Shown here piece after piece: positions 23,841 to 55,439 of a stretch of 55,439 nucleotides of DNA. Location of the stretch: positions 1-55,439 of the forward strand of contig JAGLMD010000059.1 in NCBI GenBank assembly GCA_023140175.1, written 5' to 3'. The stretch comes from Nanobdellota archaeon. GTDB lineage: Archaea > Nanobdellota > Nanobdellia > Woesearchaeales > WJIZ01. The position numbers and the translations under genes were made by a program. Within the stretch, counting starts at the first letter, position 1, and every line of letters begins with the position of its first letter. A model generated the notes under the pieces. The model was not told where the DNA came from and made no database searches. It saw only the letters and a program-made list of their open reading frames with translations.

Positions 23841-23987
23841 CCTTGGTTTCTATCTTGTCTATAATAAAAACATTTCGGTTATCTGAAAAGGTAAGCCTTG
23901 TGTGTTTGTATTTTATGATATTGCTTTGCTTAATCTCTTTATTTAAATAAACAATATATTTTTAAATCTGGGTGGGTTTTTATAATT

Positions 23988-25787: not shown

Positions 25788-25790
25788 TTT

Positions 25791-27128
25791 TTATTTCTTA
25801 GAAAAAAGAATTATATGCAGATCTGCTATATTTGTATTTGTGGGCTGAGTCAATATAAGGTTGTCTAATCTTTTTTGGAGCTCAAAGCTGTTGTTATCAT
25901 CCAAGAATTCCTGAATGTTTAGCCCTTTTTCTTTTGCTTTTTTATAAGTGTCATTATCTGCTATGGCTCCTCCGATCCCATCAATAAAATCTACACCATC
26001 AGAACCAATTGAAGCTACAACTATGTTTTTTAAGTCTTTAATCTCTTCGATTAATGCAGCAATATATTCCTGGTTTCTGCCACCCTTTCCTTTTCCTCTT
26101 ACTGTTACTGTGGTTTCGCCTGCGTATAATAAAGCATAAGTACAGTTTTGTGAATTGTATCTTTCTTTAATTAAGGAAGCAATTTTCTTGGCAGCTATTC
26201 TTGCTTCACCAACAACGTTTTCATTGTAAACTTCTGTCTTAAATTCCAAGGAATCTGCTTTTTCTTTCATGGCTTTTAATGCTAGTTTGTTGTCAGCTAG
26301 GATATAGTTGTGTACATCTCTTAGTATTTTATCATCTTTTTTTATTGTTTCTTCTGCTTCTCCAGCTATACCTTTCTTTATATACTCAACTATACTTTTT
26401 GGTGCTTTATCAAGCAGAGAATATTTTTTTAATATATTGTATGCTGTATTGAACGTGGCTTCGTCTGGCCATGTCGGACCAGAGGCTGTCGCATCTTTCG
26501 GATTTAATGTGTCGGAAATTATCAGTGTTATTACTTTTGCTGGCTGGAGGTATCTGGCAAGCTTTCCTCCTTTGATTTTTGAGATGTGTTTTCTTATTAC
26601 ATTTATCTCATAAACTTCTGCCCCGGATTTGAGCATGAGGGAGGTTAGTTCTTTTATTTCATCTAGAGTTATGCTTTCTATTGGGTAAGTCATAAGTGAA
26701 GAACCGCCGCCAGAGATTAAGCAGATAACTATATCTTCTTTAGTTAGATCTTTTGTTAGTTCTAGCATTTCTCTTACTCCAGAAATACTGCTTTTATCTG
26801 GTATAGGATGTGATGCTATGTTTATCTTGATTTTTTTTGTATTTTTGGGAGTTTTATCGTTTATAATTCCGCCAGAAATAATGTCTAAGGGAATGATTTT
26901 TTCTAATTCAATTGCCATAGCACCAGATGCTTTTCCTCCACCGATGATATATAACTTTCCTTTAGAGATATCATATTTATCTTCACGCACACTTAAAATA
27001 TTGTCTTTGAATTTTACGTGTTTGGGGATGAATTTTTCTGGTAGTACACTTTCTATACCATAAATAAGAATATCTAATGCTTTTTTTCTTAGAGTTGTAT
27101 CTACTAGTTCTTTATAATTCTTAATCAT
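25791..27128 (-). CDS. Glycerate 2-kinase / hydroxypyruvate reductase family (DUF4147 + MOFRL)
   Basis: It contains IIGGGKASGAMA, CLISGGGSSLM, KHISKIKGGKLA, AGETTVTVRGKGKGGRNQE and SIGSDGVDF...GGAI. Confidence 0.85.
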   Translation of the reverse strand: MIKNYKELVDTTLRKKALDILIYGIESVLPEKFIPKHVKFKDNILSVREDKYDISKGKLYIIGGGKASGAMAIELEKIIPLDIISGGIINDKTPKNTKKIKINIASHPIPDKSSISGVREMLELTKDLTKEDIVICLISGGGSSLMTYPIESITLDEIKELTSLMLKSGAEVYEINVIRKHISKIKGGKLARYLQPAKVITLIISDTLNPKDATASGPTWPDEATFNTAYNILKKYSLLDKAPKSIVEYIKKGIAGEAEETIKKDDKILRDVHNYILADNKLALKAMKEKADSLEFKTEVYNENVVGEARIAAKKIASLIKERYNSQNCTYALLYAGETTVTVRGKGKGGRNQEYIAALIEEIKDLKNIVVASIGSDGVDFIDGIGGAIADNDTYKKAKEKGLNIQEFLDDNNSFELQKRLDNLILTQPTNTNIADLHIILFSKK

Positions 27129-27847
27129 CTTGATTCTAGAATTGTATCTATCTTATCTTTTGCTATCTTAAGATCTTCAAAGTTATCTATTTCAACCCAT
27201 GGGAGTCCTTTTGTGCTGATGGCATAAACTTCAGAATCTTGTGACATTATTTCTACTGGTCTTACAAAAGAAGCATCAGGAGAGCCTGTTTTTACAAGGT
27301 TTTCCACTTCTTTATAATATTTCTTAGCTCCTTCTGCAGAAAACTTATAGATACCCATTGCCCAACCATTGCCATCTTGGGCTTTTTTACTGATTGCTTT
27401 TACTTTTCCATCTACTGTTTTTACTTTCATAGAATCATCAATTAACTCAATTTGATCGTCTACTGCTATTCCATTTTCGTATTTGCTATCAACTACTTCC
27501 TGTAATATACCTTTACTGAATATTATATCCGCATTAAAGAATATTATTCCATCTTTTATTTCATCTCTTGCCATCCATAATGAGAACATATTATCTGTTT
27601 TATAATAATCTTCGTTTGTATAATATTTTATTTTGCAATTCTTGTATTGTGTGCCAAATTTATTTTTTACAACGTCTGCTTTATATCCTATTATAAGAAT
27701 TACTTCTTTTATGCCGCATTCTGAGATGTTGTCTAGCATATACTCAAGAATTGTTTTTTCTCCAACAGTTATCAATGCTTTTGGGTATTTGTTTGTTAGA
27801 GGTCTTAGTCTTTTGCCTTCACCTGCCATACAAATTAGTGCTTTCAT
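27125..27847 (-). CDS. LicC/IPCT-like nucleotidyltransferase, probably a cytidylyltransferase for a phosphorylated small alcohol or acid
   Basis: It contains MAGEGKRLRPLTNKYPKALI and NMFSLW...IFFNADIIF. Its stop overlaps the start of the MOFRL gene (27125-27128). Confidence 0.75.
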   Translation of the reverse strand: MKALICMAGEGKRLRPLTNKYPKALITVGEKTILEYMLDNISECGIKEVILIIGYKADVVKNKFGTQYKNCKIKYYTNEDYYKTDNMFSLWMARDEIKDGIIFFNADIIFSKGILQEVVDSKYENGIAVDDQIELIDDSMKVKTVDGKVKAISKKAQDGNGWAMGIYKFSAEGAKKYYKEVENLVKTGSPDASFVRPVEIMSQDSEVYAISTKGLPWVEIDNFEDLKIAKDKIDTILESR

Positions 27848-27915
27848 TTTGGAAGAAGAATAGGATGATTACATTTAAATTTTACTATTTAGGCCATTAT
27901 ATTTAATAGAAACTT

Positions 27916-28647
27916 CTAACCAACAGTATGGGTGTGTTTATATCTTGTACCATCTGATTCATATATAATCAATTTTCCATGAGGGGGTTTTATTTGATTA
28001 TCATCTATTTCTTTATTTTCGTCTATTACATCATTGAGAGTGTACCCTTCTAAGATCCATTTTAACAGACCTATTGGGCCCCCATGAGAAGAAATTAAAA
28101 TATGTTCGTCTTCATGGTTTATATTTAAATAATTCAGAAAATCAACAATAGCTTTGTATTTATTTTGAAGGCTTTCCCCCCCTTCAGGAATAAGATCAAC
28201 TGTCCAGACAGGACTTTGACCCCTATAGAGATGACCAAACTTAGGTATTACTTCATCTCTTTTAACTCCAGCAAGATGTCCAAAGCTTCTTTCTTTAATT
28301 CTATCATCTATATTAATTTCACCATCATAAATTGAAGAGGATATACCTTCCAGATTAAGCTGACCATTTTCGAATATTGGATCGCCTTCTGAATTGTATT
28401 TTGGATTGGCCTTTTCCAATGCGAGCAAAGCTGTATCATACGCTCTTCTTAAAGGTGAGCTGTAGACAGTATCAAATTTTACTTTTTCTTTTTTTATGTT
28501 ATCTCTAAGTATCATCGCTTCTAGAACACCTTCTTCGCTTAGTCCTTTATCTACTACACCAATCAGCCTATGCTCTTGGTTATCCTTTGTTTTTCCATGT
28601 CTTAAAAGATATAATGTATTCTCCATATGTATAAGTATTAAGTACAA
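27916..28647 (-). CDS. Histidine phosphatase superfamily (phosphoglycerate mutase-like)
   Basis: It has the catalytic motif LYLLRHGKT and a later SSHGGPI (second His). The start is probably the ATG at 28626 (MENTLYLLRHG). Confidence 0.8.
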   Translation of the reverse strand: MYLILIHMENTLYLLRHGKTKDNQEHRLIGVVDKGLSEEGVLEAMILRDNIKKEKVKFDTVYSSPLRRAYDTALLALEKANPKYNSEGDPIFENGQLNLEGISSSIYDGEINIDDRIKERSFGHLAGVKRDEVIPKFGHLYRGQSPVWTVDLIPEGGESLQNKYKAIVDFLNYLNINHEDEHILISSHGGPIGLLKWILEGYTLNDVIDENKEIDDNQIKPPHGKLIIYESDGTRYKHTHTVG

Positions 28648-29608: not shown

Positions 29609-31087
29609 CTATCTCTTATCAAATTTCTTTTCTATAAAGCTTTGATATAAATCCCATTCTGGTGCGAATGAGAAAAACCTCAGTGACCATCTTAGATTAG
29701 CGTCTATCTTCATAATAGGAACAAATATTTCGTATAAGAGCATGTTTGTTCCTGATTTTAGTTTTCTTTTTTTGAATTGTTTTGAATAAAGAGATAACCT
29801 ATGTGTAAAAAATCTAAATCTTGAAATTATTGAGATTGTTTCTAGTTTTTTCTTATAGCTTTTGGTTAGCCAGGGGGTATTATTTGTGTCAGTATATTTC
29901 CATGATGCCCATTCTTCTATGGTGTTTGCGGGCCTGTATCCTGCTTTGACAGCATCATCATATACTGGTGTGCCCGGATATGGGCCATATACAAATAATC
30001 CATTTATTTCAAGCCTGTTACTTATTCTATATAATCTGTCGTAGAAATCTAATGTTTCATACATCTCATTTTTTGTTTCTTTCGGAATGCCTATGATAAA
30101 GCTCATCACTGGCATTATATTATGTTTAATACATTTCTTAGTGGCGATGATAACTTGTTCTGGTGTTATGTCCTTTGTTATCTTTTTCAGCATTGAAGGG
30201 GAGCCGGATTCAACACCTATTGAAAGCAATTCACACTTACTTTCTTTTAGGAGAGCCATGAAATCGTTATCAAATCTTGAGAGATAATCGGCCCTGCAAA
30301 AACTCATCCATTTAAATGACAGCCTATTTTTTATGATACCTTGTGCTATTTTTCTTACTCTTTTATTATCTACAAAGAAATTGTCCTCTACAAAATCTAT
30401 TTTTTTTGGTTTGTATAACTTTACTATCTCTTTTAAGTCTTTTATAACTTTTTCCGGGCTTTTGGCTCTCCATCTTTTTTTGTGGAAATTGAGGCCATAA
30501 CAAAATTTGCACCTATGTGGGCAACCTCTACTAGACTCATAACTAAAATATTCTAAAGATTCTGAATATTTGCTAATATCTATGAGGTCATATGCCGGGA
30601 TATCAAGGTTATCCAAGTCTATGAATTCTCGGTCAGGATTGAAAATTGGCTTGTTGTTTTTCAGGACTACTGTACCCTTTATGTCATCAAATTTCTTCCC
30701 TTTGTATATTTTTTCTAATAGTTCTCTAAAGGTTTCTTCGCCTTCTGACTTTACAATGATATCTACATATTTATTCTTAATAGACTGGTATGGGAAGAAT
30801 GAAACATGTACTCCCCCCCATATCAAAGGAATTTTTGGGTTTTTGTTTCTTATGAATTTACAAAATCTCAATGCTTCCTTTAATGGTGCGCCGGACATTG
30901 AACTTATCCCTATTGCCAGATAATCGTCAGGATTTATTTTTTCTGTATTCTCTATTCTCAAATCTAATACTTCTGGTTTAAAACCTTTTTTTCTTATATA
31001 GCTGGCAATAGCTAAAAGAGACATAGGGAATCTTGGCAGATCCATCTTTGGCCCGGTAAAAACAAGCAATACTTTCTTGGATTTCAT
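29609..31087 (-). CDS. B12-binding-domain radical SAM protein (class B-like), copy 1
   Basis: It has an N-terminal B12-binding-like Rossmann segment and the radical SAM CxxxCxxC motif in SSRGCPHRCKFCYG. Confidence 0.85.
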   Translation of the reverse strand: MKSKKVLLVFTGPKMDLPRFPMSLLAIASYIRKKGFKPEVLDLRIENTEKINPDDYLAIGISSMSGAPLKEALRFCKFIRNKNPKIPLIWGGVHVSFFPYQSIKNKYVDIIVKSEGEETFRELLEKIYKGKKFDDIKGTVVLKNNKPIFNPDREFIDLDNLDIPAYDLIDISKYSESLEYFSYESSRGCPHRCKFCYGLNFHKKRWRAKSPEKVIKDLKEIVKLYKPKKIDFVEDNFFVDNKRVRKIAQGIIKNRLSFKWMSFCRADYLSRFDNDFMALLKESKCELLSIGVESGSPSMLKKITKDITPEQVIIATKKCIKHNIMPVMSFIIGIPKETKNEMYETLDFYDRLYRISNRLEINGLFVYGPYPGTPVYDDAVKAGYRPANTIEEWASWKYTDTNNTPWLTKSYKKKLETISIISRFRFFTHRLSLYSKQFKKRKLKSGTNMLLYEIFVPIMKIDANLRWSLRFFSFAPEWDLYQSFIEKKFDKR

Positions 31088-44994: not shown

Positions 44995-46431
44995 ATGGAC
45001 ACTGTCAAACTCTCACTGATTAAGCTAAGCGATGACCCGCATGAACCGATTAATCTTCTCACTATTTCTTCCTATCTGAAAAAATACATTCCCGAATTAG
45101 AAATCAGGATAATAGACAGAGCTTATGAGAATGTTCTGGAAGAGTTGGATAAATTCAGCCCGGATATAGTAGGAATATCAGCTATGACAGTAGAATATAG
45201 TTTAGCAATAAAACTGTGTAAAGCTATCAAAGAAAAGAGGCAGATCCTAGTAATAGTAGGCGGCACGCACATATCATTTCTTCCAAACTCTTTTGACAAA
45301 TGTTTTGATTTAGGCATATTGGGGGAAGGAGAGTTGCCTTTCTTAGAATTAATCAGAAAATTCAAGGAAAATCCGGGCACATTTAAAGAAAAAATAAGAG
45401 AGACAGAGGGGATCGTTTTCTATGATGACAAGAAATTGGTTATAAAGCCGCAAAAAGAAGTCCTGCAGGATTTAGATGAGATCCCTATTCCAGATAGGTC
45501 TTTGTTGAATCCAAATAACTTTGATGTAAAGCCAGTCTATACAATAGGAACATATGAAAAAAGGAACTCCATATTGACCTCAAGGGGTTGTCCATACAGG
45601 TGCAAATTCTGTGTCTCTGCAAGGTTCTTCAACAAGCTAAGGCTACATTCTGCAAGACGGGTTGTAGATGAAGTAAAATACCTTTATGAAAAATATGGAA
45701 TAACCCATATTAATATCTGGGATGATCTTTTTTGTGTGAGTGTACCTAGATTAAGAGAGATTGTCAATCTATTGGAAAAAGAGGGCATAAAAGGAAAAAT
45801 CAGTTTTCATGCTACTATAAGGGGCAATCTGGCCAAAGACGAGGTATTTGAATTATATAAAGAAATGGGCGTCAAATCAATAGGCCTTGGTTTTGAATCT
45901 GGCAGCCAAAGGATTCTTGAATATTTGAAAGGCCAGAACATAACAATTGAACAGAACCTCCTGGCTATTGAGAAAGGCATCCGGCAAGGATTTAAGATGA
46001 TGACTTCTTTTATGATTGGTGTCCCTACAGAGAAGATAGAGGACATGAAAAAAACCAGGGATATAATGAAAAAATGCATAAATATGGGAATAAGCAGATT
46101 GTTTATATATATCCTAACACCCTTTCCAGGAAGTGAGTTCTGGGATCTTGCCCTTGAAAAAGGAAAAGTAAGTGAGGATATGGATTTTTCAAAGCTCTCC
46201 TTCCATAACAAAATCCCTCTTCTTATGGATGAAGATGTTCCAATAAAAGAATATTTAAAAGTAAGAAAGCAGATACTTAAAGAAATGAACAGAATTAAGT
46301 ATAACTGCCTAAGGGATTACTTCAAAGATGATCCGGTAAGAACGTTGTCCGGAATAATGAAGAATCCATTCAGTTCTCTGCTTAAGGCAGTAGGATTAAA
46401 GAACGAGAAAGAAGAAGTGGATGAATTATGA
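44995..46431 (+). CDS. B12-binding-domain radical SAM protein (class B-like), copy 2
   Basis: It has an N-terminal B12-binding-like domain (VGISAMTVEY...VIVGGTHISF) and the motif TSRGCPYRCKFCVS. Confidence 0.85.
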   Translation: MDTVKLSLIKLSDDPHEPINLLTISSYLKKYIPELEIRIIDRAYENVLEELDKFSPDIVGISAMTVEYSLAIKLCKAIKEKRQILVIVGGTHISFLPNSFDKCFDLGILGEGELPFLELIRKFKENPGTFKEKIRETEGIVFYDDKKLVIKPQKEVLQDLDEIPIPDRSLLNPNNFDVKPVYTIGTYEKRNSILTSRGCPYRCKFCVSARFFNKLRLHSARRVVDEVKYLYEKYGITHINIWDDLFCVSVPRLREIVNLLEKEGIKGKISFHATIRGNLAKDEVFELYKEMGVKSIGLGFESGSQRILEYLKGQNITIEQNLLAIEKGIRQGFKMMTSFMIGVPTEKIEDMKKTRDIMKKCINMGISRLFIYILTPFPGSEFWDLALEKGKVSEDMDFSKLSFHNKIPLLMDEDVPIKEYLKVRKQILKEMNRIKYNCLRDYFKDDPVRTLSGIMKNPFSSLLKAVGLKNEKEEVDEL

Positions 46432-47407: not shown

Positions 47408-47836
47408 ATGGTTCAAAAAAATACAATAGAATATGGATATGATGGAAAGAAACCATATAACTTTTCAAGATATAAAGGCAAAGAGTTTCTTTTAGAATAT
47501 GAAAAATCACGCAAAGAAGCTATTTCTAAACTGGGCAATCTGGAGATTATAGAGGAAAACTGGTTAAATGAAGTAATACTAAAATATTATGAAACAAAAA
47601 AAGAGATAGACAATCTTTCAGGAAACATTGTCCTATCATTGCAATTCATCCAGAACTATCTAAAAACAAAAGATATTAGGTATCTGAATGCCTGTCTCAA
47701 AGCCAATGACTTAATTTGCGGCAGCCTAGATAAAATAAATTCTAAAATGTCGAGGAAATGTGCATTTACTTCAATAAGCTTAGAACTGAAAGAAGTAAAA
47801 GAATTATACAAAAAAAGGGGGATTAAAATTGAATAA
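47408..47836 (+). CDS. Hypothetical protein (predicted helical)
   Basis: The ORF lies in an operon context, and its end overlaps the next gene. I do not recognise a family. Confidence 0.35.
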   Translation: MVQKNTIEYGYDGKKPYNFSRYKGKEFLLEYEKSRKEAISKLGNLEIIEENWLNEVILKYYETKKEIDNLSGNIVLSLQFIQNYLKTKDIRYLNACLKANDLICGSLDKINSKMSRKCAFTSISLELKEVKELYKKRGIKIE

Positions 47837-48464
47837 TATTGGAATACTCCTATATCCCGGAACAAGAGCAATGTTTTATATGCAAGAACTAGTTAACAAT
47901 AAATTGAATCCTTCTTATGCATTAATATTAGATAATAAAAATAATCACTTTAAAGACCTCATTAAAATATGCAAGAACAATGAAATTGAGTATGAAACAT
48001 TAAAAACAAGCAACATAAATGATATTGAAGTAGTTGAGAAGATAAGAAAGAGAGAAGAAAATTACTTTATTTTTTCGGGTGGTGGTATATTAAGTAAAGA
48101 AATTGTGAATATAAAAAAATTCATCCACATTCATCCGGGTATCCTGCCCGAATACAAAGGAAGCACATGTTTTTACTATAGCCTTCTAAATGATAAAAAT
48201 ATAGGAGCGTCGGCATTTATCATGAAACCGGAAATCGATTCAGGTGAAATCATTGCAAAAAAAGTATTTCCCTTACCAAAGACAATGGATTTAGATAACT
48301 ATTATGATCCATTCATAAGATCAAGATTATTATTAGAAATCATTAAAAACAGGTCTTATGTAAAAACAAGATTACAGACAAAAAAAGGAAAAGACTACTA
48401 TATAATTCACCCTGTTTTGAAGCATATTGCTTTGTTAGATTTAGAAAAAGAGATAAAAAATTAA
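47829..48464 (+). CDS. Formyltransferase N-terminal-domain-like protein with an atypical active-site Asn position
   Basis: FIHIHPGILPEYKGS...IMKPEIDSGEII resembles the iNlHpSLLPryRG...D.G.ii core. The catalytic Asn position is His. The start is a TTG preceded by GGGGG. Confidence 0.55.
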   Translation: MNNIGILLYPGTRAMFYMQELVNNKLNPSYALILDNKNNHFKDLIKICKNNEIEYETLKTSNINDIEVVEKIRKREENYFIFSGGGILSKEIVNIKKFIHIHPGILPEYKGSTCFYYSLLNDKNIGASAFIMKPEIDSGEIIAKKVFPLPKTMDLDNYYDPFIRSRLLLEIIKNRSYVKTRLQTKKGKDYYIIHPVLKHIALLDLEKEIKN

Positions 48465-48465
48465 A

Positions 48466-49221
48466 ATGATATCAATTAAAGAACTATACTTAAAATACAA
48501 AAAACCACAAGTAGATAAGGTCAAATTAGATCCGTGGGGCAGGTTCATTAATATTATCTCAATCCCCATCACAAGGTTTTTGCTGGGCACAAGAATAACA
48601 CCAAACCAAGTAACATATTTCTGGACAGTTCTTGGGATTATTGGTGGTCTTTTCTTTATACCTGGAACTGTGAAATATAATATCATCGGTGCAGTGATTC
48701 TAAATATATCCTGGGTTTTTGACGCAGTAGATGGAACAATGGCAAGAGTAAGGAAGATATGTTCCCCCATGGGGTTCTACTTAGAATCACTTGGGCACTG
48801 GCTTAGCACAGTATTTATGGGTATGGGTATAGCGATTGGTGCATACAACAAAACAAAAGAGATTAACATATTGATATTAGGATTCTTATTCTGTATTTCG
48901 ATACTATTATTTCATTTGCTTACAAGAGAAAAAATACACATATATCTAAAAGAAGGGATGTATAAGAAAAAGGCTAAGGAAAGCAATCCTATAAAAATAA
49001 GTAAACAGGAAAATAAAAGTCTAGTACAAAGAATCTATGATATTGCCCTCCATTTTTATCAAGGAGATTTTTTCTTTTTGATTATAATACCTTTATCGCT
49101 ATTAAATATGGTAGAATATATGGTTATCTTCTATGGGATTACTTTTCCAATCTTAATACTCCTGCTATATATTTATGAGGTAAAAAGAGGATTTGAATGG
49201 GTAGATGGGCTACATAAATAA
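48466..49221 (+). CDS. CDP-alcohol phosphatidyltransferase family membrane protein with a variant motif (D3 to E, D4 to H)
   Basis: DAVDGTMARVRKICSPMGFYLESLGH aligns exactly with D-x2-DG-x2-AR-x8-G-x3-D-x3-D, but E and H replace the last two Asp. The protein has multiple TM segments. Confidence 0.7.
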   Translation: MISIKELYLKYKKPQVDKVKLDPWGRFINIISIPITRFLLGTRITPNQVTYFWTVLGIIGGLFFIPGTVKYNIIGAVILNISWVFDAVDGTMARVRKICSPMGFYLESLGHWLSTVFMGMGIAIGAYNKTKEINILILGFLFCISILLFHLLTREKIHIYLKEGMYKKKAKESNPIKISKQENKSLVQRIYDIALHFYQGDFFFLIIIPLSLLNMVEYMVIFYGITFPILILLLYIYEVKRGFEWVDGLHK

Positions 49222-49229
49222 AGAAACTG

Positions 49230-50024
49230 TTAATCTGATTGAAAATTAAAGAATTTTTCAAGACAGCATTTATCCAACCACCCATTATATCTTTCATAAT
49301 CATCCACAGTATCAAACTCTAACCATCCATGTTTGATAGTTATTGGTTCAACCTTATATCCTGCATCTATCAATGCCTGTAACATACATGTCATATATGC
49401 TTTCTTAAATGATTTGGACCTAAACCACTTTTTATCCTTATTAAAATATTTATTCTTGTTCTCATGATAGACTTTTTTCAATGCCTTAACTCCTTCCCTG
49501 GAGAACTTGATCAATCCGACATATCTTAATTTAGCTTCATCATGATTGCAGTCTGGATTTCCCAAATCAACTATTTCCCCTTTTTCATCAAGGACTAAAC
49601 TCTCAGTATCCTCTTTTGGATTATCCAATCTAGCTTTCCAATAATCCCAGTAATCCTCATCAACCGTAACACCAATATTCACATCACTATTCAAAATTTT
49701 CTCAACAATTCTCTTCTCATATAGAATATCTGCATAACAAACTAAGACTTCACTATCCAGCTCTTCCTCAGCACAGAACAGGGTCTCTATCATGTTGGTA
49801 TTTGCATAATCTTCATTAACATAATATTTGACACCCCTAATCTGAATCTTGTCAGGCTCAAATCCCTTGACAATTATGATATCATTAATGCCGCATTTTC
49901 TTAATGTCTCTACCTGCCATTCTATTAAAGCCTTACCGTTGAAATTGAGCATACACTTAGGCAGGTTCTCGGTATATCTGCCTAATCTTGTTCCCATTCC
50001 TGCTGCTAAAATTATTGCTTTCAT
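49230..50024 (-). CDS. LicC-like nucleotidyltransferase, probably a cytidylyltransferase for a phosphorylated small molecule
   Basis: It contains ILAAGMGTRLGRYTENLPKCML and NMIETL...VCYADILY. It is a paralogue of 27125..27847. Confidence 0.75.
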   Translation of the reverse strand: MKAIILAAGMGTRLGRYTENLPKCMLNFNGKALIEWQVETLRKCGINDIIIVKGFEPDKIQIRGVKYYVNEDYANTNMIETLFCAEEELDSEVLVCYADILYEKRIVEKILNSDVNIGVTVDEDYWDYWKARLDNPKEDTESLVLDEKGEIVDLGNPDCNHDEAKLRYVGLIKFSREGVKALKKVYHENKNKYFNKDKKWFRSKSFKKAYMTCMLQALIDAGYKVEPITIKHGWLEFDTVDDYERYNGWLDKCCLEKFFNFQSD

Positions 50025-50140: not shown

Positions 50141-51025
50141 ATGTCTACAAAGGAAAAGTTAAACTGGATTTTACTACCTTATAAAGGAAAGGGGGTCTTA
50201 GAAGTAGAAGAAAGAGTGCAACAATTTACAGAAAGAGACCTCAGTAACTTAGTTGAAGAGCATGCAAGAAAGATTGCTAGGCACCTAGGTAAAGATGAAA
50301 ATAAACTTGTTCAGGCCATAGTAGAAGAAAATAAAAAAACAATCAATGATTATATTCCTGGTCTTTCACCACAATTTGCACAAGAAGAGATTTACAATCT
50401 TGAGGGATTTGATCCTACTACCGAAAGACTCACTTTGGGTATTACAACAGGTCTTATGGCAAAAGCACTTCAGAATGTCTATAAAGATCAAGATCCGACA
50501 CAGAATCCGATCGTTCTTCAAGGAATATTAATCACAAAAGATGAAAAAATAGTATTAGGAATAAGATCTAAACCTAATTTCAGAGCCAATCAACCTGATG
50601 AACCTTTCGATTATAAAATTATGCCTATTCCTGCGGGTTATGCTCTTCTTCATGAAGAAAAAAATCTAACACAGCTATTTTATCTTGAACTAAATGAAGA
50701 AAGTGGATTACATGAAGAAAACATAGCATCACTATCTATAATCTATAATCATGATGATATAGGATTTACAGGAGGAAAAAGGATAACTCTACTGGCTTAT
50801 ACCAACAATTCATTTAGAGAAGTTGAAGAAAGTTGGAGAAATGCACCACATAGTTGGGAATACGAAGGATTGCTTGAAATTGAATGTAGCTCCAAAGCAA
50901 TGAGGGAGTTATTAACAACAAGAAATTTCTCAAAATATCATGAAAAAGCAAAAGGATTATTAGAACCTACAATAGTACCTGTATTCGAATATATAGCAAG
51001 CAACCCAACCATTATTAGAAGATAA
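50141..51025 (+). CDS. Hypothetical protein with a divergent Nudix-like box
   Basis: AGYALLHEEKNLTQLFYLELNEESGL resembles GX5EX7REUXEEXGU, but the spacing is irregular and the R position is L. A TATA-like TTTTTAAATAAG lies about 27 nt upstream. Confidence 0.4.
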   Translation: MSTKEKLNWILLPYKGKGVLEVEERVQQFTERDLSNLVEEHARKIARHLGKDENKLVQAIVEENKKTINDYIPGLSPQFAQEEIYNLEGFDPTTERLTLGITTGLMAKALQNVYKDQDPTQNPIVLQGILITKDEKIVLGIRSKPNFRANQPDEPFDYKIMPIPAGYALLHEEKNLTQLFYLELNEESGLHEENIASLSIIYNHDDIGFTGGKRITLLAYTNNSFREVEESWRNAPHSWEYEGLLEIECSSKAMRELLTTRNFSKYHEKAKGLLEPTIVPVFEYIASNPTIIRR

Positions 51026-51029
51026 AATC

Positions 51030-51250
51030 CTTCAAACTGAGACTACCTTCCCCTCACCAATTTCTCAACCGTTTTTTTAGAAATCCTTTCAGGAGTATCT
51101 GGAAACGATTCATAAGGTGGCGGTTCCGAGGGAATATACTCTAATTCTACTGCCCTTATCTGAAAGATATTTCCGCAGATATATTCCTAGTATCTGGCTT
51201 CGGGCTATATTCCCAAAACACACTACACCTATTTGCTTAATATTTCTCAT
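51030..51250 (-). pseudogene. Remnant of a low-molecular-weight protein tyrosine phosphatase (or arsenate reductase-like) gene
   Basis: My own translation of 51110..51250 gives MRNIKQIGVVCFGNIARSQILGIYLRKYLSDKGSRIRVYSLGTATL*. It carries the CX5RS P-loop (CFGNIARS) and a SAGT-like SLGT. It stops after 46 aa, and only a short continuation appears in another frame. The ATG overlaps the upstream TGA. Confidence 0.45.
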
Positions 51251-51942
51251 CATTCTACACTTTTCCAAAACATATCCTTATTAATAAATGCTCTAACTAT
51301 TTTCTCATTCACTCCTTCATCCGGGCTTCTCCGTTCAGGATGCCATTCTATCCCTACAATAGGCAAAGATTGATGATATATTCCCTCAACTACACTATCT
51401 GAAGTCTTTGCAAATACAACCATATTTTCACCTATACCCCCTTCAATAAATCCATAATTATGATAAGAATTAGTTTCAAAACTCTTGCCTAAAAAATTAG
51501 CTTTATCACCCATAACATTAACATTATGTGTAACCGCAACATGCCCAATAAAATCTTTAACCTCATCTTTAATACTAACTAATTTCCCACCAAAAAAAAC
51601 ATTTATGAATTGCATCCCTCGACAAATCCCCAAAACAGGCAATTTCTTTTCAATGGCAATCTCAATCATCTTCTTCTCTGTTGAATCCCTTATCTCAGAA
51701 AAGTCGGAATTTGAAGGCACTTTACCCTCATATAGTGCAGGATTGACCATATTCCCCCCAGTCAGTATTAGGCCTTCTATAGGCAATTCATCAAAATAAA
51801 GACCAAGATCCTTTACGCAATTAGGGATAACAATCAATTTTATACCACACTTCTCAAGATAGTTTACATAATTATTTTCAAGATTATCTACATAATCTCC
51901 GTGTTTATTCTTGTCATTCCGTTGTGATATTGCTACCAGCAT
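51250..51942 (-). CDS. Class I glutamine amidotransferase-like / peptidase C26 gamma-glutamyl hydrolase family protein
   Basis: It has the nucleophile elbow PVLGICRGMQFINVFFGG and the His-Glu motif GIEWHPER. Its start overlaps the upstream gene by 10 nt. Confidence 0.8.
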   Translation of the reverse strand: MLVAISQRNDKNKHGDYVDNLENNYVNYLEKCGIKLIVIPNCVKDLGLYFDELPIEGLILTGGNMVNPALYEGKVPSNSDFSEIRDSTEKKMIEIAIEKKLPVLGICRGMQFINVFFGGKLVSIKDEVKDFIGHVAVTHNVNVMGDKANFLGKSFETNSYHNYGFIEGGIGENMVVFAKTSDSVVEGIYHQSLPIVGIEWHPERRSPDEGVNEKIVRAFINKDMFWKSVE

Positions 51943-54900
51943 GTTAAACCACCCCCCATAGGAGTTATTTTCTTAAACTTACAATCAAGAATAATTCCTT
52001 TAGCCTTTCTTAAGCTATCAAAAATCACCCCACATCCTATTGCTGCAGGAATTCCAAATTCCGCACACCTTATCGACATATGAGATGCCACCCCCCCATA
52101 TTTAGTTATCAGTCCAGAAATATCTCGGGTAAATATCCAATCATAACCCGGATCTCCATTCTCTATTAAGACAACTTTGCCTTTAACATCCTGAAAATTT
52201 CCATCACCATCTTTAACAAGTTCCACTATCTCCGACTTTACTGTCTTTTGAGTTATATAATTTGGCCTAGGCTTATAATACTCTATGATATCAAAATCAT
52301 CTTCCGAAAAAATCAAAGGAGGCAGAACCAACCCTCCATTAAGTTCTCTTTCTTTCATTCTCAATTTTATTAATTCTTTCCACCCCCGGGTTAGCTTATT
52401 TCGCCCCCCTAGAAAATCTGATAAAATATCATTTATATCTAACATGGAGAGTTCAAGTCTAGTAAAGCCCATTTCATACCCTGCTTTAGAAATAAGCTCA
52501 ATACTATCACTAAGATTTTTAGTGAATTCAAATTTCGAGAATTCTCTTGCAGTGATAGCATCTCTGCAAAAATCGAAAAGATATTTTGCAGAAAAATTCA
52601 TGCCCTTTTTTTTAAGAAAGCCCGTGATAATATTTTCAATATCAGGAGTAAGCTCAAAATTGGAAGATTTAATTTCGCTACCAACATCAGGAATCGCACC
52701 TAAAAGAGAAGGATTTGATTCATATCTCAAGCTACATATATCATATGACCCCGGCCTTAAATGATAGTATTTCTTAATAAACTCTTCCTTACTGATATTT
52801 CCAGAATGCATCATTTTGAAATCTTCATCTATCTCAGTTGCAACAGTACGTATAGACCTCATAAAATTATCAAATAGGGTCTCATCAATTATTCCTTTTT
52901 TTACCATGCTCTTTAATATAATTTTACCTATAAAAGCAAGCCTAGCTAATCTAGAAAACTCCACAGTTCCTTTTTCTTTGCATTTATCAAGCAAAGATTT
53001 TGCATTTTTTATTGTTTCACCAACAGAAACATTTTTTATTTCACCTAATCGGATCTCCCCCCTTTCCACCCCCATATCAGTTATGGACTTTAAATCATCT
53101 TTGATTGACTCTTTCGAATTCTTAATCAGGTTATTTGTCAATTTAATTAAAGATTTTTTAAGCTGAATTACTTCTGCAGAACTAAATCCATTCTGAATTA
53201 GCTCAGTAGACCGATCATCAAAACAGAAATCAAAACAACTATAGACTATATCAAATTCAACTTTGTCTTGTAATTCAGGATTTTTTTCAAGTTTATTTAG
53301 ATAGAAATCTACTAGTTTCCCCCTCAGCTCCTGAGAAAGTGCGGCCGGAACAAAAGAGTTAAAACTATGCCTCACATCAATATAAGGTTTATTTCCAAAT
53401 AAAACAACAAGTTTGCCTGGGTCTACATTATAATAACCTTGCGAAGTTCTTGCTTGATGCCATGAACTAGCAGTTATTATATAATCATACAAAGAGTAAT
53501 CTAGATGATGGGGATTGTCCCCTATTATCTCAGCAGGATTCCAATCAGGCATATCGGCAAAAATAGTTCTATTGCCTGTAAGATGTTCCTTTTTCTTACA
53601 AAAATCAGTAAATTTCTTTTTTAGGATAGATATCTTCTCCTTCAAGTCATCATCCAGATCATAGTTCTTCAGGCTAGTAGTTAGTGGCCTCACCTGAAAT
53701 ATTATAATTTCACCGTTAGTATCAATAGCAAATTCTATATCTAGCCCAATACCTTGAACTTTTTCCTCGATTTCTTTAACAGAACCCAGAAGTCGCTTAA
53801 ATTTAATAGGTATTTTTGAAGCATCGACAAATCTTGAAATCTTTAGGAGATTACCCTCAACACCCTTAGTGACTGTATCGCTTTTCCCGGTCGAATTATC
53901 ATAATTAATCACATAATAAGGTGCATTATTCTCAAGTGTTCTCGTAAAGATAACCCCACTCATGATAATGTTCTGAGTGTGTGTCTGGATAAGAACTTGA
54001 TTAAAAGAGCTTTCAGAATTTTTAGATTTATATGATTTAATTACCCTTTTTATGGCCTCTTCAACTTGTTCTTTAGATGATGAATCTACATCTAGTTCGC
54101 TTTCATAGCAGCCAGCCATGGAGTTTTCTAAAGTATCTTCATTAACAGCAGAACTTCTAACAACAATCATGCTTGGAGAATACTTATTTGATATCTCCTT
54201 AATTAATGACTCCTTCCTGTTTTTCCAATCAGAAACAGTGAACACAAATATATCTTCAATCTTAGATAATTTCAAAAGTGGTTTTAATGCTTCAAGGGTT
54301 TTTGCTTTTGTAGAGATAATCACTTTATTGATATCTTGAGAATCTGATCCTAAGCTAGCTTCACCACTCACTAAAGAAGCAAAGTCGATAACATCCTTTA
54401 ATTTATCTTTGTAGTCAATTACCTTACTCATTATCTTATAATTAGATAACCTTGAATAATATGGATGCTGAATTACATCCCCGCCTATACTTTTGACATA
54501 ATCTGAACCTGGAACAAACTTCCAATCAGACCCATGTACAATCATAATCTTTGCTTCAGGAAATTCTTCATGCAGTTTCCTTAAATTATCAGTTGGATCT
54601 ACATCTGACTGAGTCATTACTCTGTCTACACATTTTAGTGCAGTTATGATGGCCTTTCTTTCTTTAAAATTCGCGATTGGTTTTGCCCTGTTTTTCTCAA
54701 CAGCCTTATCAGTTAATACACCACAGACACTATAATCAGATATTGATTTAGCAAATTGTATAGAACGGAGATGACCATAATGAAAAAGATCTGCAACTGT
54801 GCCACTATAAGCTATTTTTTTGATACTTGCCTTGTTTATCTCAACTATATCTCCATCCCTAATATCAGAATCATTAGGTATAGTGACACAAAGCTGGCCA

Positions 54901-54953
54901 TTAGACTTATTCTTCCAAACCCTTTTTTTCATGAAATCACCCACTAGTAACAC
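51933..54953 (-). CDS. Multidomain fusion: HxGH cytidylyltransferase, PPDK_N-type ATP-grasp, a long middle domain and a C-terminal swivelling phosphohistidine domain (Cj1418 / rifampicin-phosphotransferase-type small-molecule kinase)
   Basis: The cytidylyltransferase part has GTVADLFHYGHLRSIQFAK...SRLSNYKI. The ATP-grasp part has VVRSSAVNEDTLENSMAGCYESELDV, SGVIFT and IEFAIDTNGEIIIFQVRPLT. The C-terminus has KYGGVASHMSIRCAEFGIPAAIGCG. No PEP/pyruvate TIM-barrel domain is present. The start may be the ATG at 54932 (MKKRVW). Confidence 0.8.
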   Translation of the reverse strand: MLLVGDFMKKRVWKNKSNGQLCVTIPNDSDIRDGDIVEINKASIKKIAYSGTVADLFHYGHLRSIQFAKSISDYSVCGVLTDKAVEKNRAKPIANFKERKAIITALKCVDRVMTQSDVDPTDNLRKLHEEFPEAKIMIVHGSDWKFVPGSDYVKSIGGDVIQHPYYSRLSNYKIMSKVIDYKDKLKDVIDFASLVSGEASLGSDSQDINKVIISTKAKTLEALKPLLKLSKIEDIFVFTVSDWKNRKESLIKEISNKYSPSMIVVRSSAVNEDTLENSMAGCYESELDVDSSSKEQVEEAIKRVIKSYKSKNSESSFNQVLIQTHTQNIIMSGVIFTRTLENNAPYYVINYDNSTGKSDTVTKGVEGNLLKISRFVDASKIPIKFKRLLGSVKEIEEKVQGIGLDIEFAIDTNGEIIIFQVRPLTTSLKNYDLDDDLKEKISILKKKFTDFCKKKEHLTGNRTIFADMPDWNPAEIIGDNPHHLDYSLYDYIITASSWHQARTSQGYYNVDPGKLVVLFGNKPYIDVRHSFNSFVPAALSQELRGKLVDFYLNKLEKNPELQDKVEFDIVYSCFDFCFDDRSTELIQNGFSSAEVIQLKKSLIKLTNNLIKNSKESIKDDLKSITDMGVERGEIRLGEIKNVSVGETIKNAKSLLDKCKEKGTVEFSRLARLAFIGKIILKSMVKKGIIDETLFDNFMRSIRTVATEIDEDFKMMHSGNISKEEFIKKYYHLRPGSYDICSLRYESNPSLLGAIPDVGSEIKSSNFELTPDIENIITGFLKKKGMNFSAKYLFDFCRDAITAREFSKFEFTKNLSDSIELISKAGYEMGFTRLELSMLDINDILSDFLGGRNKLTRGWKELIKLRMKERELNGGLVLPPLIFSEDDFDIIEYYKPRPNYITQKTVKSEIVELVKDGDGNFQDVKGKVVLIENGDPGYDWIFTRDISGLITKYGGVASHMSIRCAEFGIPAAIGCGVIFDSLRKAKGIILDCKFKKITPMGGGLTCW

Positions 54954-55050: not shown

Positions 55051-55439
55051 TTAATTAAAAATCTCTAATTGCATTGCTTTTATCAGTTTCTTTTGAGATT
55101 CGGTAAGTTCATTTATATGCCTTATTGCTTCTTTTCCCCCAGCAACTTTAGTATAATAACAGGTGATTTCCTCCAGTTCTTCAAGTGATTGTTGAGTTGT
55201 TATCTGATGTTTTGTTTCACTTAACCTATTTCTTAATATTTGGTATAACTGTAGGGCCATAATACATGTGTAAACATGACTTTCTATCCTCTCATCCTTA
55301 GAATGCAGCATTGGACCAAGCACTATAAATCTATTTGTATATGCATTTGCTTTTAAGAACTGAAAGTTCTTTTCGATTTTATCTTTATTAAAAAATAATT
55401 CCAAAATATCTTGAGGTAATAAGCCTAATCTGTTTGTAA
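55051..55439 (-). mobile_element. 3' part of a DDE transposase gene (IS4/IS1634-like), truncated by the window edge
   Basis: The reading frame stays open to position 55439. It has the C-terminal YREK-like motif FFNKDKIEKNFQFLK (Y..R..IE..F..LK pattern), followed by LHSKDERIESHVYTCIMALQL, typical of IS4-type C-termini. Confidence 0.55.

What the first reader, a model, noticed from the sequence alone, without database searches (positions are those of the whole stretch)
51250..54953. Archaeal operon mirroring the Campylobacter phosphoramidate (MeOPN) donor pathway: kinase-cytidylyltransferase fusion coupled to a C26/GATase hydrolase
Two minus-strand genes are translationally coupled by a 10-nt overlap at 51933-51942. 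The 1006-aa product carries three recognisable domains in order. First is an HxGH cytidylyltransferase domain (FHYGH). Second is a PPDK_N ATP-grasp domain (VRSSAVNED...SMAG...; FQVRPLT). Third, at the extreme C-terminus, is a swivelling phosphohistidine domain (GGVASHMSIRCAEFGIPAA). No PEP/pyruvate-binding TIM barrel follows. That domain order matches small-molecule kinases such as rifampicin phosphotransferase and C. jejuni Cj1418 (L-glutamine kinase), not PEP synthase. The next gene is a class-I amidotransferase/peptidase-C26 protein with an intact Cys elbow (GICRGMQ) and HPE motif, the same fold as Cj1417 (gamma-glutamyl-CDP-amidate hydrolase). In C. jejuni, Cj1418, Cj1416 (CTP:phosphoglutamine cytidylyltransferase) and Cj1417 act in that order to make cytidine diphosphoramidate. 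That compound is the precursor of the O-methyl phosphoramidate capsule decoration. Here all three chemistries (kinase, cytidylyltransferase, gamma-glutamyl hydrolase) are encoded in two coupled genes. They sit inside a glycan island that also holds many SAM methyltransferases, a second LicC-like nucleotidyltransferase (49230..50024) and a Nudix-like protein. To my knowledge a P-N (phosphoramidate) glycan modification pathway has not been described in archaea, nor with this fusion architecture.
Basis: partly seen in the sequence, partly recalled or inferred. Interest (0 to 1): 0.85.

Follow-up and report, generated by a model that had tools for sequence, protein, structure and literature searches.

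The report
Archaeal phosphoramidate-donor gene cassette, variant form
A tiny uncultured archaeon carries the gene set that Campylobacter uses to make its rare phosphorus-nitrogen sugar decoration; the set proves to be widespread in microbes, and here it has an extra enzyme domain whose role is still open.

Summary
Two minus-strand genes overlap by 10 nt. The first encodes an HxGH cytidylyltransferase domain fused to an ATP-grasp / helical / phospho-histidine kinase with no TIM barrel. The second encodes a C26 amidotransferase with an intact Cys-His-Glu triad.

The kinase matches NCBIfam NF004508 end to end at 844 bits, and JGI labels close relatives 'glutamine kinase'. The hydrolase's best family is the Cj1417 family, but below that family's cutoff.

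The fused HxGH domain is not the Cj1416 counterpart. Cj1416 belongs to COG1213 (LicC-type), and that gene is present separately at 49230..50024, in the conserved third operon position. In 27 of 27 informative loci, a kinase carrying an extra N-terminal nucleotidyltransferase still keeps the LicC-type gene.

The cassette is not rare. It occurs in at least ~590 species genomes, bacterial and archaeal (including Haloferax), and on one giant-virus contig. An in-silico prediction for archaeal Borg elements already exists.

What looks new is a variant branch. Kinases with the extra domain tend to be linked to CMP-releasing CDP-X phosphotransferases and to lack the Cj1415-type kinase. This window has no such kinase.

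The parts
51933..54932 (-). Fusion gene: a small N-terminal segment, an HxGH cytidylyltransferase domain and a Cj1418-type (NF004508) three-domain kinase. The product is 999 aa from ATG 54932. The ORF extends to GTG 54953.
54420..54821 (-). HxGH (PF01467/COG0615) cytidylyltransferase domain. FHYGH lies at 54771-54785 and the C-terminal nucleotide motif PYYSRLS at 54444-54464.
   Evidence: Pfam hit of 47 bits. It aligns end to end with the Fom1 CyTase domain 5x3d and with ECT and TagD. Foldseek gives TM 0.87 and 1.6 A to HEP-CMP-bound Fom1. H51, G53, R92 and S163 are invariant and H54, P157, Y158 and Y159 are at least 90% conserved in 65 fusion proteins.
53664..54338 (-). ATP-grasp (PPDK_N) domain of the kinase.
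   Evidence: PF01326. The RSS..ED..AG and Q.RP motifs are invariant.
52284..53663 (-). Central all-helical, family-specific domain, presumed to bind the substrate. It is not a TIM barrel.
   Evidence: AlphaFold secondary structure, the RPH-like fold match, and invariant motifs such as DMPDWNPAEIIG, QDKVEFE and HLRPGTYDI across sequences 35-49% identical to the window's kinase.
51978..52184 (-). Swivelling phosphohistidine domain. The catalytic His (H951 of the 999-aa form) is the codon at 52080-52082.
   Evidence: PF00391. The G-G-x-A-S-H-M motif is invariant.
51933..51942 (-). 10-nt overlap (ATGCTGGTAG) between the stop codon of the fusion gene and the start codon of the GATase gene.
51250..51942 (-). 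C26 / class-I glutamine amidotransferase-fold hydrolase, Cj1417-like. The catalytic triad is C107, H201 and E203.
   Evidence: PF07722 at 119 bits. NF045546 is the best family at 93.8 bits, below its cutoff of 250. The triad and family-specific residues (R85, E89, G109 and W200 in 72/72; D86 and R108 in 71/72) are conserved in kinase-linked homologues.
49230..50024 (-). LicC-type (COG1213 / NTP_transf_3) nucleotidyltransferase. By family and by operon position this is the Cj1416 counterpart.
   Evidence: PF12804. LicC 1jyk is the best PDB hit. It holds the conserved third position of the cassette in about 50 loci. JGI labels homologues 64-73% identical 'L-glutamine-phosphate cytidylyltransferase'. 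Cj1416 is COG1213.
48466..49221 (+). CDP-alcohol phosphotransferase-family membrane protein with a variant signature, DAVDGTMAR-x8-G-FYL-E-SLG-H (48721-48798). It is the candidate transferase for the CDP-linked product.
   Evidence: PF01066. The assigned function is inferred.
47408..48464 (+). Two conserved accessory genes: a small ORF of unknown function (47408-47836) and a formyltransferase-fold protein (47829-48464) in which the catalytic Asn is replaced by His.
   Evidence: The formyltransferase-like family is found in 22 loci, bacterial and archaeal, usually after the APS kinase. The family HMM hits the window ORF at 276 bits.
50141..51025 (+). Unannotated 294-aa ORF on the opposite strand between the GATase and the NTase. 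It is not a conserved member of the cassette.
   Evidence: No Pfam or PDB hit. A homologue appears in only one other locus. The ORF in the same position in L005 is unrelated.

Best explanation
This is the front end of a cytidine-diphosphoramidate (phosphoramidate-donor) pathway of the Campylobacter Cj1418/Cj1417/Cj1416 type, carried in the surface-glycan island of a DPANN (Nanoarchaeota) archaeon.

Inferred chemistry. [quoted passage not shown] The separate LicC-type enzyme (49230..50024) joins that product to CMP from CTP to give CDP-L-glutamine. The translationally coupled C26 hydrolase removes glutamate to leave CDP-NH2.

Differences from Campylobacter. The window has no Cj1415-type 3'-kinase. 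The kinase also carries an additional HxGH cytidylyltransferase domain whose catalytic motifs are intact. I propose that this variant passes a CDP-linked species (CDP-amidate, or CDP-glutamine before trimming) directly to a CMP-releasing phosphotransferase, here the neighbouring CDP-alcohol-phosphotransferase homologue (48466..49221). That enzyme would place a P-N group on a glycan or lipid, and one of the island's SAM methyltransferases might then methylate it.

The role of the fused HxGH domain is unresolved. My ranking is: a second, distinct cytidylyl-transfer step feeding that transferase (about 45%); cytidylylation of glutamine phosphate in cis, overlapping with the LicC-type enzyme (about 30%); a nucleotide-binding or scaffolding role (about 15%).

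What is shown: domain identities, conserved catalytic residues, gene order, co-occurrence and fusions. What is inferred: every substrate, the transfer step and the final product.
For: Kinase:
- NF004508 covers the full length at 843.7 bits (cutoff 501). PEP-synthase models score at most 52 bits and RPH models about 22 bits.
- The fold is RPH-like with no barrel.
- JGI labels homologues 53-61% identical 'glutamine kinase'.

Hydrolase:
- Its best family is NF045546 (the Cj1417 family).
- The Cys-His-Glu triad is invariant in 72 kinase-linked homologues.
- JGI labels some homologues 'N5-(cytidine 5'-diphosphoramidyl)-L-glutamine hydrolase'.

NTase:
- Cj1416 is COG1213, and the window gene is LicC-type.

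Synteny:
- The order kinase > GATase > LicC-NTase > APS kinase recurs in bacteria and archaea. It matches cj1418 to cj1415.

Fusions in other lineages (Rosetta-stone evidence):
- kinase with C-terminal C26 GATase;
- APS kinase with HxGH domain and kinase;
- GATase with LicC-NTase and kinase in one giant-virus ORF.

Variant branch:
- The N-terminal NTase never replaces the LicC gene (27/27 loci).
- CDP-X phosphotransferases of three folds are linked in 20/30 loci with the extra domain and 3/14 without (p=0.009). The APS kinase is linked in 9/30 and 11/14 (p=0.004).
- No APS kinase is found in the window even at E<=10.
- The HxGH catalytic residues are conserved in 65 fusion proteins.
Against: - No C. 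jejuni sequence could be retrieved, so orthology rests on curated HMMs, automated KO labels and synteny, not on a phylogeny.
- NF004508 is named only 'hypothetical protein', and I could not verify that it includes Cj1418.
- The hydrolase scores 93.8 bits, well below NF045546's cutoff of 250. NCBI and some JGI records call its relatives PuuD-family.
- The co-occurrence statistics are not corrected for phylogeny.
- The contig ends about 1.1 kb beyond the kinase gene, so a Cj1415-type kinase or other partners may lie elsewhere in the genome.
- The window's CDP-alcohol phosphotransferase has E and H in place of the last two signature Asp residues, so its activity is uncertain.
- No P-N compound has been demonstrated in any archaeon.
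Confidence: 0.6

Rival explanations
1. The fused HxGH domain is the functional equivalent of Cj1416, so the two coupled genes alone convert glutamine, ATP and CTP into CDP-amidate. The LicC-like gene serves another purpose, for example activating a phospho-alcohol for the adjacent CDP-alcohol phosphotransferase.
For: The HxGH domain is physically fused to the kinase and its catalytic motifs are invariant. Its closest relatives cytidylylate small phospho- or phosphono-compounds: Fom1, ECT and TagD. An NTase of the other fold is fused at the same position in other lineages. The window's LicC-like gene lies next to, and convergent with, a CDP-alcohol phosphotransferase, and both proteins hit the IPCT/DIPPS model weakly.
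Against: The LicC-type gene holds the conserved Cj1416 position in cassettes that have no other NTase, so its function there must be the Cj1416 step. It is retained in 27/27 loci whose kinase has an N-terminal NTase. The giant-virus triple fusion uses the LicC-type domain. HxGH enzymes and Cj1416 are unrelated folds. JGI labels the LicC-type homologues as the glutamine-phosphate cytidylyltransferase.
Confidence: 0.25
2. The cassette makes a CDP-activated amino-acid donor and not a phosphoramidate. CDP-glutamine, or another CDP-X, is itself transferred to a glycan or lipid. This would resemble CDP-N-methylthreonine in Clostridioides difficile flagellin glycosylation. The C26 protein would act on something else or only afterwards.
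For: CMP-releasing phosphotransferases (LicD, TagF-like, CDP-alcohol PT) are linked to this variant. The C. difficile pathway shows that a CDP-amino acid can be a phosphotransferase donor.
Against: The C26 hydrolase is almost universally coupled to the kinase, often by overlap or fusion, and its triad is invariant. That fits an obligatory gamma-glutamyl cleavage step. Its best family is the CDP-amidate hydrolase family.
Confidence: 0.1
3. These are ordinary metabolic genes: a PEP synthase or PPDK-like enzyme plus a PuuD-type or anthranilate/GMP-synthase-type amidotransferase, sitting by chance inside a glycan island.
For: Generic annotations exist, such as 'PEP-utilizing enzyme' and 'gamma-glutamyl-gamma-aminobutyrate hydrolase family protein'. 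PuuD 6vtv is among the hydrolase's weaker PDB sequence hits.
Against: There is no PEP/pyruvate-binding barrel. PEP-synthase models score at most 52 bits against cutoffs of 598 and above. PuuD scores 49.8 bits against a cutoff of 266. The four-gene synteny and the multiple fusions link these genes specifically to one another.
Confidence: 0.02

Closest known systems
Campylobacter jejuni MeOPN donor pathway: Cj1418 (L-glutamine kinase), Cj1416 (CTP:phosphoglutamine cytidylyltransferase), Cj1417 (gamma-glutamyl-CDP-amidate hydrolase), Cj1415 (CDP-amidate 3'-kinase)
   Same: The three folds (ATP-grasp/His-swivel kinase, LicC-type NTase, C26 hydrolase) occur in the same gene order in related loci. 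The catalytic His and the Cys-His-Glu triad are intact. The genes lie inside a surface-glycan locus that also holds SAM methyltransferases.
   Different: The kinase carries an extra HxGH cytidylyltransferase domain. The window has no Cj1415-type kinase. A CDP-alcohol phosphotransferase homologue is linked to the cassette here. I could not test for Cj1421/1422 homologues because no sequences were available. The hydrolase scores below the curated family cutoff. The host is a DPANN archaeon.
Rifampin phosphotransferase (RPH-Lm; PDB 5hv1, 5fbs)
   Same: It is the best full-length structural match. It has the same layout: ATP-grasp, then a helical substrate domain, then a C-terminal swivelling His domain, with no TIM barrel.
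   Different: Sequence identity is only about 15%. RPH NCBIfam models score about 22 bits. The central domain is family-specific. RPH has no partner amidotransferase or NTase.
Fom1 cytidylyltransferase domain (fosfomycin biosynthesis; PDB 5x3d)
   Same: It is the closest structural and sequence relative of the fused HxGH domain (TM 0.87, 28% identity). It is also a cytidylyltransferase fused to an enzyme of the same pathway that does not catalyse the adjacent step.
   Different: Fom1 acts on 2-hydroxyethylphosphonate and is fused to PEP mutase. The window has no PEP mutase.
Predicted MeOPN-like cluster in Methanoperedens Borg elements (bioRxiv 10.1101/2024.11.05.622173)
   Same: It is an archaeal-associated, purely in-silico prediction of glutamine kinase, hydrolase and cytidylyltransferase genes, with two NTase-type genes in the cluster.
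   Different: It is carried on an extrachromosomal element. Its kinase is not reported as an HxGH fusion. One of its NTases is fused to PEP mutase.
Clostridioides difficile Type A flagellin glycan pathway (CDP-threonine, then N-methylation, then a TagF-like phosphotransferase)
   Same: A CDP-activated nitrogen-containing small molecule is made by an NTase and transferred by a CMP-releasing phosphotransferase, and a methyltransferase is involved.
   Different: It has no glutamine kinase, no C26 hydrolase and no P-N bond.

Membership tests
Cj1418-type L-glutamine kinase (EC 2.7.3.13) | Three-domain layout: ATP-grasp, substrate domain and C-terminal phosphohistidine swivel domain, with no PEP/pyruvate TIM barrel | tested here: met
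   Pfam domain order, the AlphaFold model and the Foldseek RPH-like match
Cj1418-type L-glutamine kinase (EC 2.7.3.13) | Conserved catalytic histidine in the swivel domain | tested here: met
   H951 in G-G-V-A-S-H-M is invariant in 65 fusion proteins and in 20 diverse kinases
Cj1418-type L-glutamine kinase (EC 2.7.3.13) | Sequence membership in the same curated family or clade as Cj1418 | tested here: inconclusive
   The protein scores 843.7 bits on NF004508 (cutoff 501), and JGI labels homologues 'glutamine kinase'. No Cj1418 sequence was obtainable, and NF004508 is named only 'hypothetical protein'.
Cj1418-type L-glutamine kinase (EC 2.7.3.13) | Genomic coupling to C26 hydrolase and LicC-type NTase genes in the cj1418>1417>1416 order | tested here: met
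Cj1418-type L-glutamine kinase (EC 2.7.3.13) | ATP-dependent N-phosphorylation of L-glutamine | not testable with these tools
   This needs an enzyme assay (31P-NMR or LC-MS).
Cj1417 gamma-glutamyl-CDP-amidate hydrolase (NF045546) | Class-I GATase / C26 fold with a Cys-His-Glu triad | tested here: met
   PF07722 at 119 bits. C107, H201 and E203 are invariant in 72 homologues.
Cj1417 gamma-glutamyl-CDP-amidate hydrolase (NF045546) | Score at or above the curated equivalog cutoff (250 bits) | tested here: not met
   The score is 93.8 bits. NF045546 is still the best family by 12 orders of magnitude in E-value. The kinase-fused Paenibacillus GATase behaves the same way (105 bits).
Cj1417 gamma-glutamyl-CDP-amidate hydrolase (NF045546) | Hydrolysis of CDP-L-glutamine to CDP-amidate and glutamate | not testable with these tools
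   This needs an enzyme assay.
Cj1416 CTP:phosphoglutamine cytidylyltransferase (COG1213, LicC-type) | COG1213 / NTP_transf_3 fold, tested on the fused N-terminal domain | tested here: not met
   The fused domain is PF01467 / HxGH (COG0615-type). Cj1416 is COG1213 and unrelated to it.
Cj1416 CTP:phosphoglutamine cytidylyltransferase (COG1213, LicC-type) | COG1213 / NTP_transf_3 fold and the operon position after the hydrolase, tested on the separate gene 49230..50024 | tested here: met
   PF12804, LicC as best PDB hit, conserved position and the JGI label on homologues 64-73% identical
Cj1415 CDP-amidate 3'-kinase (APS-kinase fold) | An APS-kinase-fold gene in the locus | tested here: not met
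   An HMM built from 19 cassette-linked APS kinases finds nothing in window ORFs of 40 aa or more at E<=10. The contig ends about 1.1 kb beyond the kinase gene, so the rest of the genome is untested.
Cj1421/Cj1422 MeOPN transferases | A homologue present in the locus | not tested
   No reference sequence or model was available in the tools.
PEP synthase / PPDK | A C-terminal PEP/pyruvate-binding TIM barrel and a family-level score | tested here: not met
   No PF02896 hit. PEP-synthase models score at most 52 bits against cutoffs of 598 and above. The central domain is helical.
CDP-alcohol phosphotransferase (PF01066), gene 48466..49221 | Signature D-x2-D-G-x2-A-R-x8-G-x3-D-x3-D | tested here: inconclusive
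   The first half of the signature is intact. The last two Asp residues are E and H (DAVDGTMAR-x8-G-FYL-E-SLG-H). The D4-to-H change recurs in L008, L011, L014, L019 and L021.

The most novel reading that the evidence does not exclude
DPANN archaea, and many uncultured bacteria, use a distinct branch of phosphoramidate biosynthesis with two cytidylyltransferases and no 3'-kinase. In this branch a CDP-linked P-N intermediate is handed directly to CMP-releasing phosphotransferases (CDP-alcohol PT, TagF-like or LicD). The product would be the first P-N-containing glycan or lipid of an archaeal cell envelope. The extra NTase fused to the kinase would catalyse a step that has no counterpart in Campylobacter.
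Probability: 0.3. Interest if true: 0.8.

Novelty: new variant of a known kind. Interest (0 to 1): 0.6.

Why it matters
O-methyl phosphoramidate has been treated as a near-unique Campylobacter capsule decoration. The core genes for its CDP-amidate donor turn out to be present in hundreds of bacterial and archaeal species and on a giant-virus contig. If those genes do what their homologues do, biological P-N glycan or lipid modifications are far more widespread than the chemistry literature suggests.

The variant seen here has an extra cytidylyltransferase on the kinase, no 3'-kinase, and a linked CMP-releasing phosphotransferase. That points to a second, uncharacterised way of delivering the phosphoramidate group.

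The cassette is also present in cultured Haloferax elongans, and genetic tools exist for the genus Haloferax. The question of whether archaea make P-N envelope components can therefore be tested directly.

Tried and rejected
- **Primary papers.** I tried to read the four primary Raushel papers (PMC5938751, PMC5629633, PMC6643271, PMC5938747), but none is held. Pathway facts are therefore cited from open-access secondary sources.
- **C. jejuni sequences.** I could not obtain Cj1415-Cj1418 sequences. The genome scan kept the 80 best loci and none was Campylobacter. All three homology searches returned only close archaeal relatives. No explicit phylogeny against Cj1418, PEP synthase and RPH was built; NCBIfam model scores served as a proxy.
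- **PRK05849 link.** A literature search linking PRK05849 or COG0574 to Cj1418 found nothing.
- **Window searches.** Searches for an APS kinase, a sulfatase-family protein and the conserved unknown 'c15' family found nothing in the window.
- **294-aa 'Nudix-like' ORF.** It has no Pfam or PDB hit. It is unrelated to its positional counterpart in L005. Single-sequence AlphaFold gave pLDDT 37, so I ran no fold search on it.
- **142-aa ORF.** No PDB sequence hit.
- **Phosphonate pathway, rejected.** LicC-type NTases resemble PntC, and the HxGH domain resembles Fom1. However, the window has no PEP mutase, and the kinase plus GATase pair would have no role in such a pathway.
- **Extra NTase always degenerate, rejected.** The NTP_transf_3-type extensions are heterogeneous, but the HxGH type has invariant catalytic residues.

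Full report
**1. Observation**

The sequence at the junction is ...GGT TTA ACA TGC TGG TAG, and the downstream ATG is embedded in it, giving a 10-nt overlap. A G-rich run ends 7 nt before that ATG. The real start of the long gene is probably ATG 54932, giving 999 aa. It is preceded by GGTGAT, homologues begin MKR/MKK, and the NCBI version is 999 aa.

Pfam finds CTP_transf_like (residues 53-144), PPDK_N and the PEP-utilizers mobile domain (924-992), and no PEP-utilizers_C barrel. The short protein is Peptidase_C26/GATase.

An AlphaFold model built on 65 homologues is confident (pLDDT 86.1, pTM 0.76), and the region from about 420 to 870 is entirely helical. Foldseek against the PDB returns full-length rifampin phosphotransferase first (E 5e-21). 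Next comes the HEP-CMP-bound Fom1 cytidylyltransferase domain (TM 0.87, 1.6 A). No PEP synthase or PPDK barrel appears.

The window is archaeal. It encodes SecY and an archaeo-eukaryotic primase small subunit, and the protein is 100% identical to one from a 'Nanoarchaeota archaeon' MAG on a 56,051-bp contig. The surrounding 18-55 kb is a glycan island.

**2. What the genes are**

*Kinase.* Against NCBIfam, residues 206-998 match NF004508 (PRK05849) end to end at 843.7 bits (cutoff 501). PEP-synthase models reach at most 52 bits and RPH models about 22 bits.

*Hydrolase.* Its best family is NF045546, gamma-glutamyl-CDP-amidate hydrolase (Cj1417), at 93.8 bits (E 1.5e-26). That is far ahead of PuuD (49.8 bits) and the TrpG/GuaA types, but below the curated cutoff of 250. 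Its Cys107-His201-Glu203 triad is invariant in 72 kinase-linked homologues, as are R85, E89, G109 and W200; D86 and R108 are kept in 71 of 72.

*Annotation labels.* JGI's pipeline labels close homologues of the three proteins as follows:
- 'glutamine kinase';
- 'L-glutamine-phosphate cytidylyltransferase';
- for some GATase homologues, 'N5-(cytidine 5'-diphosphoramidyl)-L-glutamine hydrolase', while others are called PuuD.

**3. The key correction**

Cj1416 is a COG1213 (LicC/IMPCT-type) cytidylyltransferase. TagD-type HxGH enzymes are COG0615 and are not homologous to it (PMC12275187). The fused N-terminal domain is HxGH-type; its closest relatives are Fom1 CyTase, ECT, TagD and HldC.

Comparative genomics settles its position. 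I mapped the partner genes in the 80 best loci. The order kinase > C26 hydrolase > LicC-NTase > APS kinase recurs in bacteria and archaea alike. It matches cj1418 > cj1417 > cj1416 > cj1415.

Locus L005 is a split version of the window's architecture: the HxGH gene, a kinase-only gene, the GATase, the LicC-NTase and an APS kinase.

Among loci with at least 3 kb of downstream sequence:
- all 18 with an HxGH-fused kinase keep the separate LicC-type gene;
- all 9 with an NTP_transf_3-fused kinase keep it too.

A giant-virus MAG contig encodes GATase, LicC-NTase and kinase as a single ORF of about 1,275 aa. The canonical cytidylyltransferase of this pathway is therefore the LicC type. The HxGH domain is an addition and not a replacement.

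**4. Distribution and prior knowledge**

The kinase family has 1,537 cluster representatives (clustered at 50% identity) at E<=1e-30. Its members show these architectures:
- kinase only;
- HxGH domain plus kinase;
- NTP_transf_3 domain plus kinase (for example Ca. Nomurabacteria and Haloferax);
- kinase plus C-terminal C26 GATase (for example Paenibacillus and many Lachnospiraceae);
- APS kinase plus HxGH domain plus kinase.

Archaeal carriers include Woesearchaeota, Pacearchaeota, Altiarchaeales, Micrarchaeia, a Marine Group I thaumarchaeote and cultured Haloferax elongans. The exact three-domain fusion seen in the window occurs in more than 110 90%-identity clusters.

A 2024 preprint already predicted Cj1416/17/18-like genes in archaeal Borg elements from structure models.

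**5. What is different here**

The window has no APS-kinase-fold gene, even at E<=10, although the contig ends about 1.1 kb beyond the kinase gene. Instead, a CDP-alcohol phosphotransferase homologue lies convergent with the LicC-type gene. Its signature reads DAVDGTMAR-x8-G-FYL-E-SLG-H, and the fourth-Asp-to-His change recurs in five other cassette-linked copies, including one in Omnitrophota.

I tallied 44 loci of at least 15 kb that carry the LicC-type gene:

| Linked gene | Kinase with extra N-terminal NTase | Kinase without | Fisher p |
|---|---|---|---|
| CMP-releasing CDP-X phosphotransferase (CDP-alcohol PT, TagF-like PF04464 or LicD PF04991) | 20/30 | 3/14 | 0.009 |
| APS kinase | 9/30 | 11/14 | 0.004 |

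These counts are not phylogenetically independent. The pattern does, however, span two NTase folds, three transferase folds and several phyla.

The HxGH domain keeps its catalytic residues. H51, G53, R92 and S163 are invariant, and H54 and the P157-Y158-Y159 stretch are at least 90% conserved. The R-x-K pair aligns with TagD K44/K46 (the residue numbering for TagD is from memory). The NTP_transf_3-type extensions are heterogeneous at their signature residues.

**6. Mechanism**

Shown:
- the domain identities;
- the conserved catalytic residues;
- the gene order;
- the fusions and co-occurrence.

Inferred:
1. Glutamine is N-phosphorylated by the kinase through His951.
2. The LicC-type enzyme cytidylylates the product.
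3. The coupled C26 hydrolase removes glutamate to give CDP-amidate.
4. In this variant the CDP-linked product goes directly to a CMP-releasing phosphotransferase, without 3'-phosphorylation.
5. One of the island's methyltransferases possibly methylates the transferred group.

The role of the HxGH domain is open. The candidates, in my order of preference, are a second cytidylyl transfer, cytidylylation of glutamine phosphate in cis, and a binding or scaffolding role.

**7. Verdict**

The GATase test is passed only in part: the Cj1417 family is its best family, but the score is below the cutoff. The assignment of the third chemistry to the fused domain is most likely wrong, and both the rarity of the architecture and its novelty in archaea were overstated.

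The finding is best described as a new variant of a known kind. The wide distribution of the cassette and the unexplained extra nucleotidyltransferase give it real, moderate-to-high interest.

Noticed in passing
L086:4576-8403 (IMGVR_UViG_GVMAG-M-3300024261-33_000001): A giant-virus MAG contig (locus GC 24%) encodes a single ORF of about 1,275 aa that fuses the C26 GATase, the LicC-type NTase and the kinase. All three Cj1417/1416/1418-type activities are in one polypeptide. This suggests that a giant virus may make CDP-amidate.
   Followed up: partly
L025, L029, L037, L038, L042, L043, L046, L049, L056-L058, L063, L065, L067, L071, L073, L081: Many Lachnospiraceae and other Clostridia have a kinase with a C-terminal GATase fusion and no detectable nucleotidyltransferase within 10 kb (0/13 informative loci). 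The neighbouring genes are housekeeping genes. This pair may have a different output, for example free phosphoramidate.
   Followed up: partly
window 47408-48464 (+): A small ORF of unknown function and a formyltransferase-fold protein recur after the APS kinase in cassettes from Cohnella, Nomurabacteria, Pseudomonas, Lysobacterales and DPANN archaea (the formyltransferase-like family is in 22 loci). In this family the catalytic Asn is replaced by His (H-x-H-P-G...D), while the catalytic His and Asp are kept. Its closest solved relatives are sugar N-formyltransferases.
   Followed up: partly
window 48721-48798 (+): The cassette-linked CDP-alcohol phosphotransferase has E and H in place of the last two signature Asp residues. 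The fourth-Asp-to-His change recurs in L008, L011, L014, L019 and L021 (Omnitrophota). The window's second copy (23169-23840) has the canonical signature.
   Followed up: partly
window 23169-28647: A separate module contains a canonical CDP-alcohol phosphotransferase, a GAPDH-HAD fusion, a glycerate kinase (DUF4147+MOFRL) that overlaps an NTP_transferase gene by 4 nt, and a histidine phosphatase. It resembles a CDP-glycerate route like the one recently described for CpgD in Caulobacter.
   Followed up: no
window 29609-31087 (-) and 44995-46431 (+): The island holds two B12-binding radical-SAM enzymes (the class B methyltransferase type). Related genes appear near the cassette in L010, L015, L027 and L032. 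Fom3, a class B radical-SAM enzyme, acts on a cytidylylated substrate made by the Fom1 CyTase domain (stated from memory), which is the closest relative of the fused HxGH domain.
   Followed up: no
L054:3738-14466 (Haloferax elongans ATCC BAA-1513, NZ_AOLK01000024): A cultured haloarchaeon has an operon-like array, all on one strand: a STAND/TPR regulator, a sulfatase-family (PF00884) protein, an NTP_transf_3-kinase fusion, the GATase, the LicC-NTase and an APS kinase. The sulfatase-family protein recurs in 10 loci and is a candidate phosphotransferase.
   Followed up: partly
window 54822-54932 (-): The first ~37 residues of the fusion protein (RVWKNKSNGQLCVTIPNDSDIRDGDIVEI) look, by eye, like a SpoVT/AbrB-type beta-hairpin segment. 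There is no Pfam hit, and model confidence in this stretch is low (pLDDT 56-76).
   Followed up: no
window 55051-55404 (-): A 117-aa ORF with no Pfam hit sits just upstream of the fusion gene, near the contig end. It could not be assigned to any family.
   Followed up: no
It is not conserved in the cassette.
   Followed up: yes
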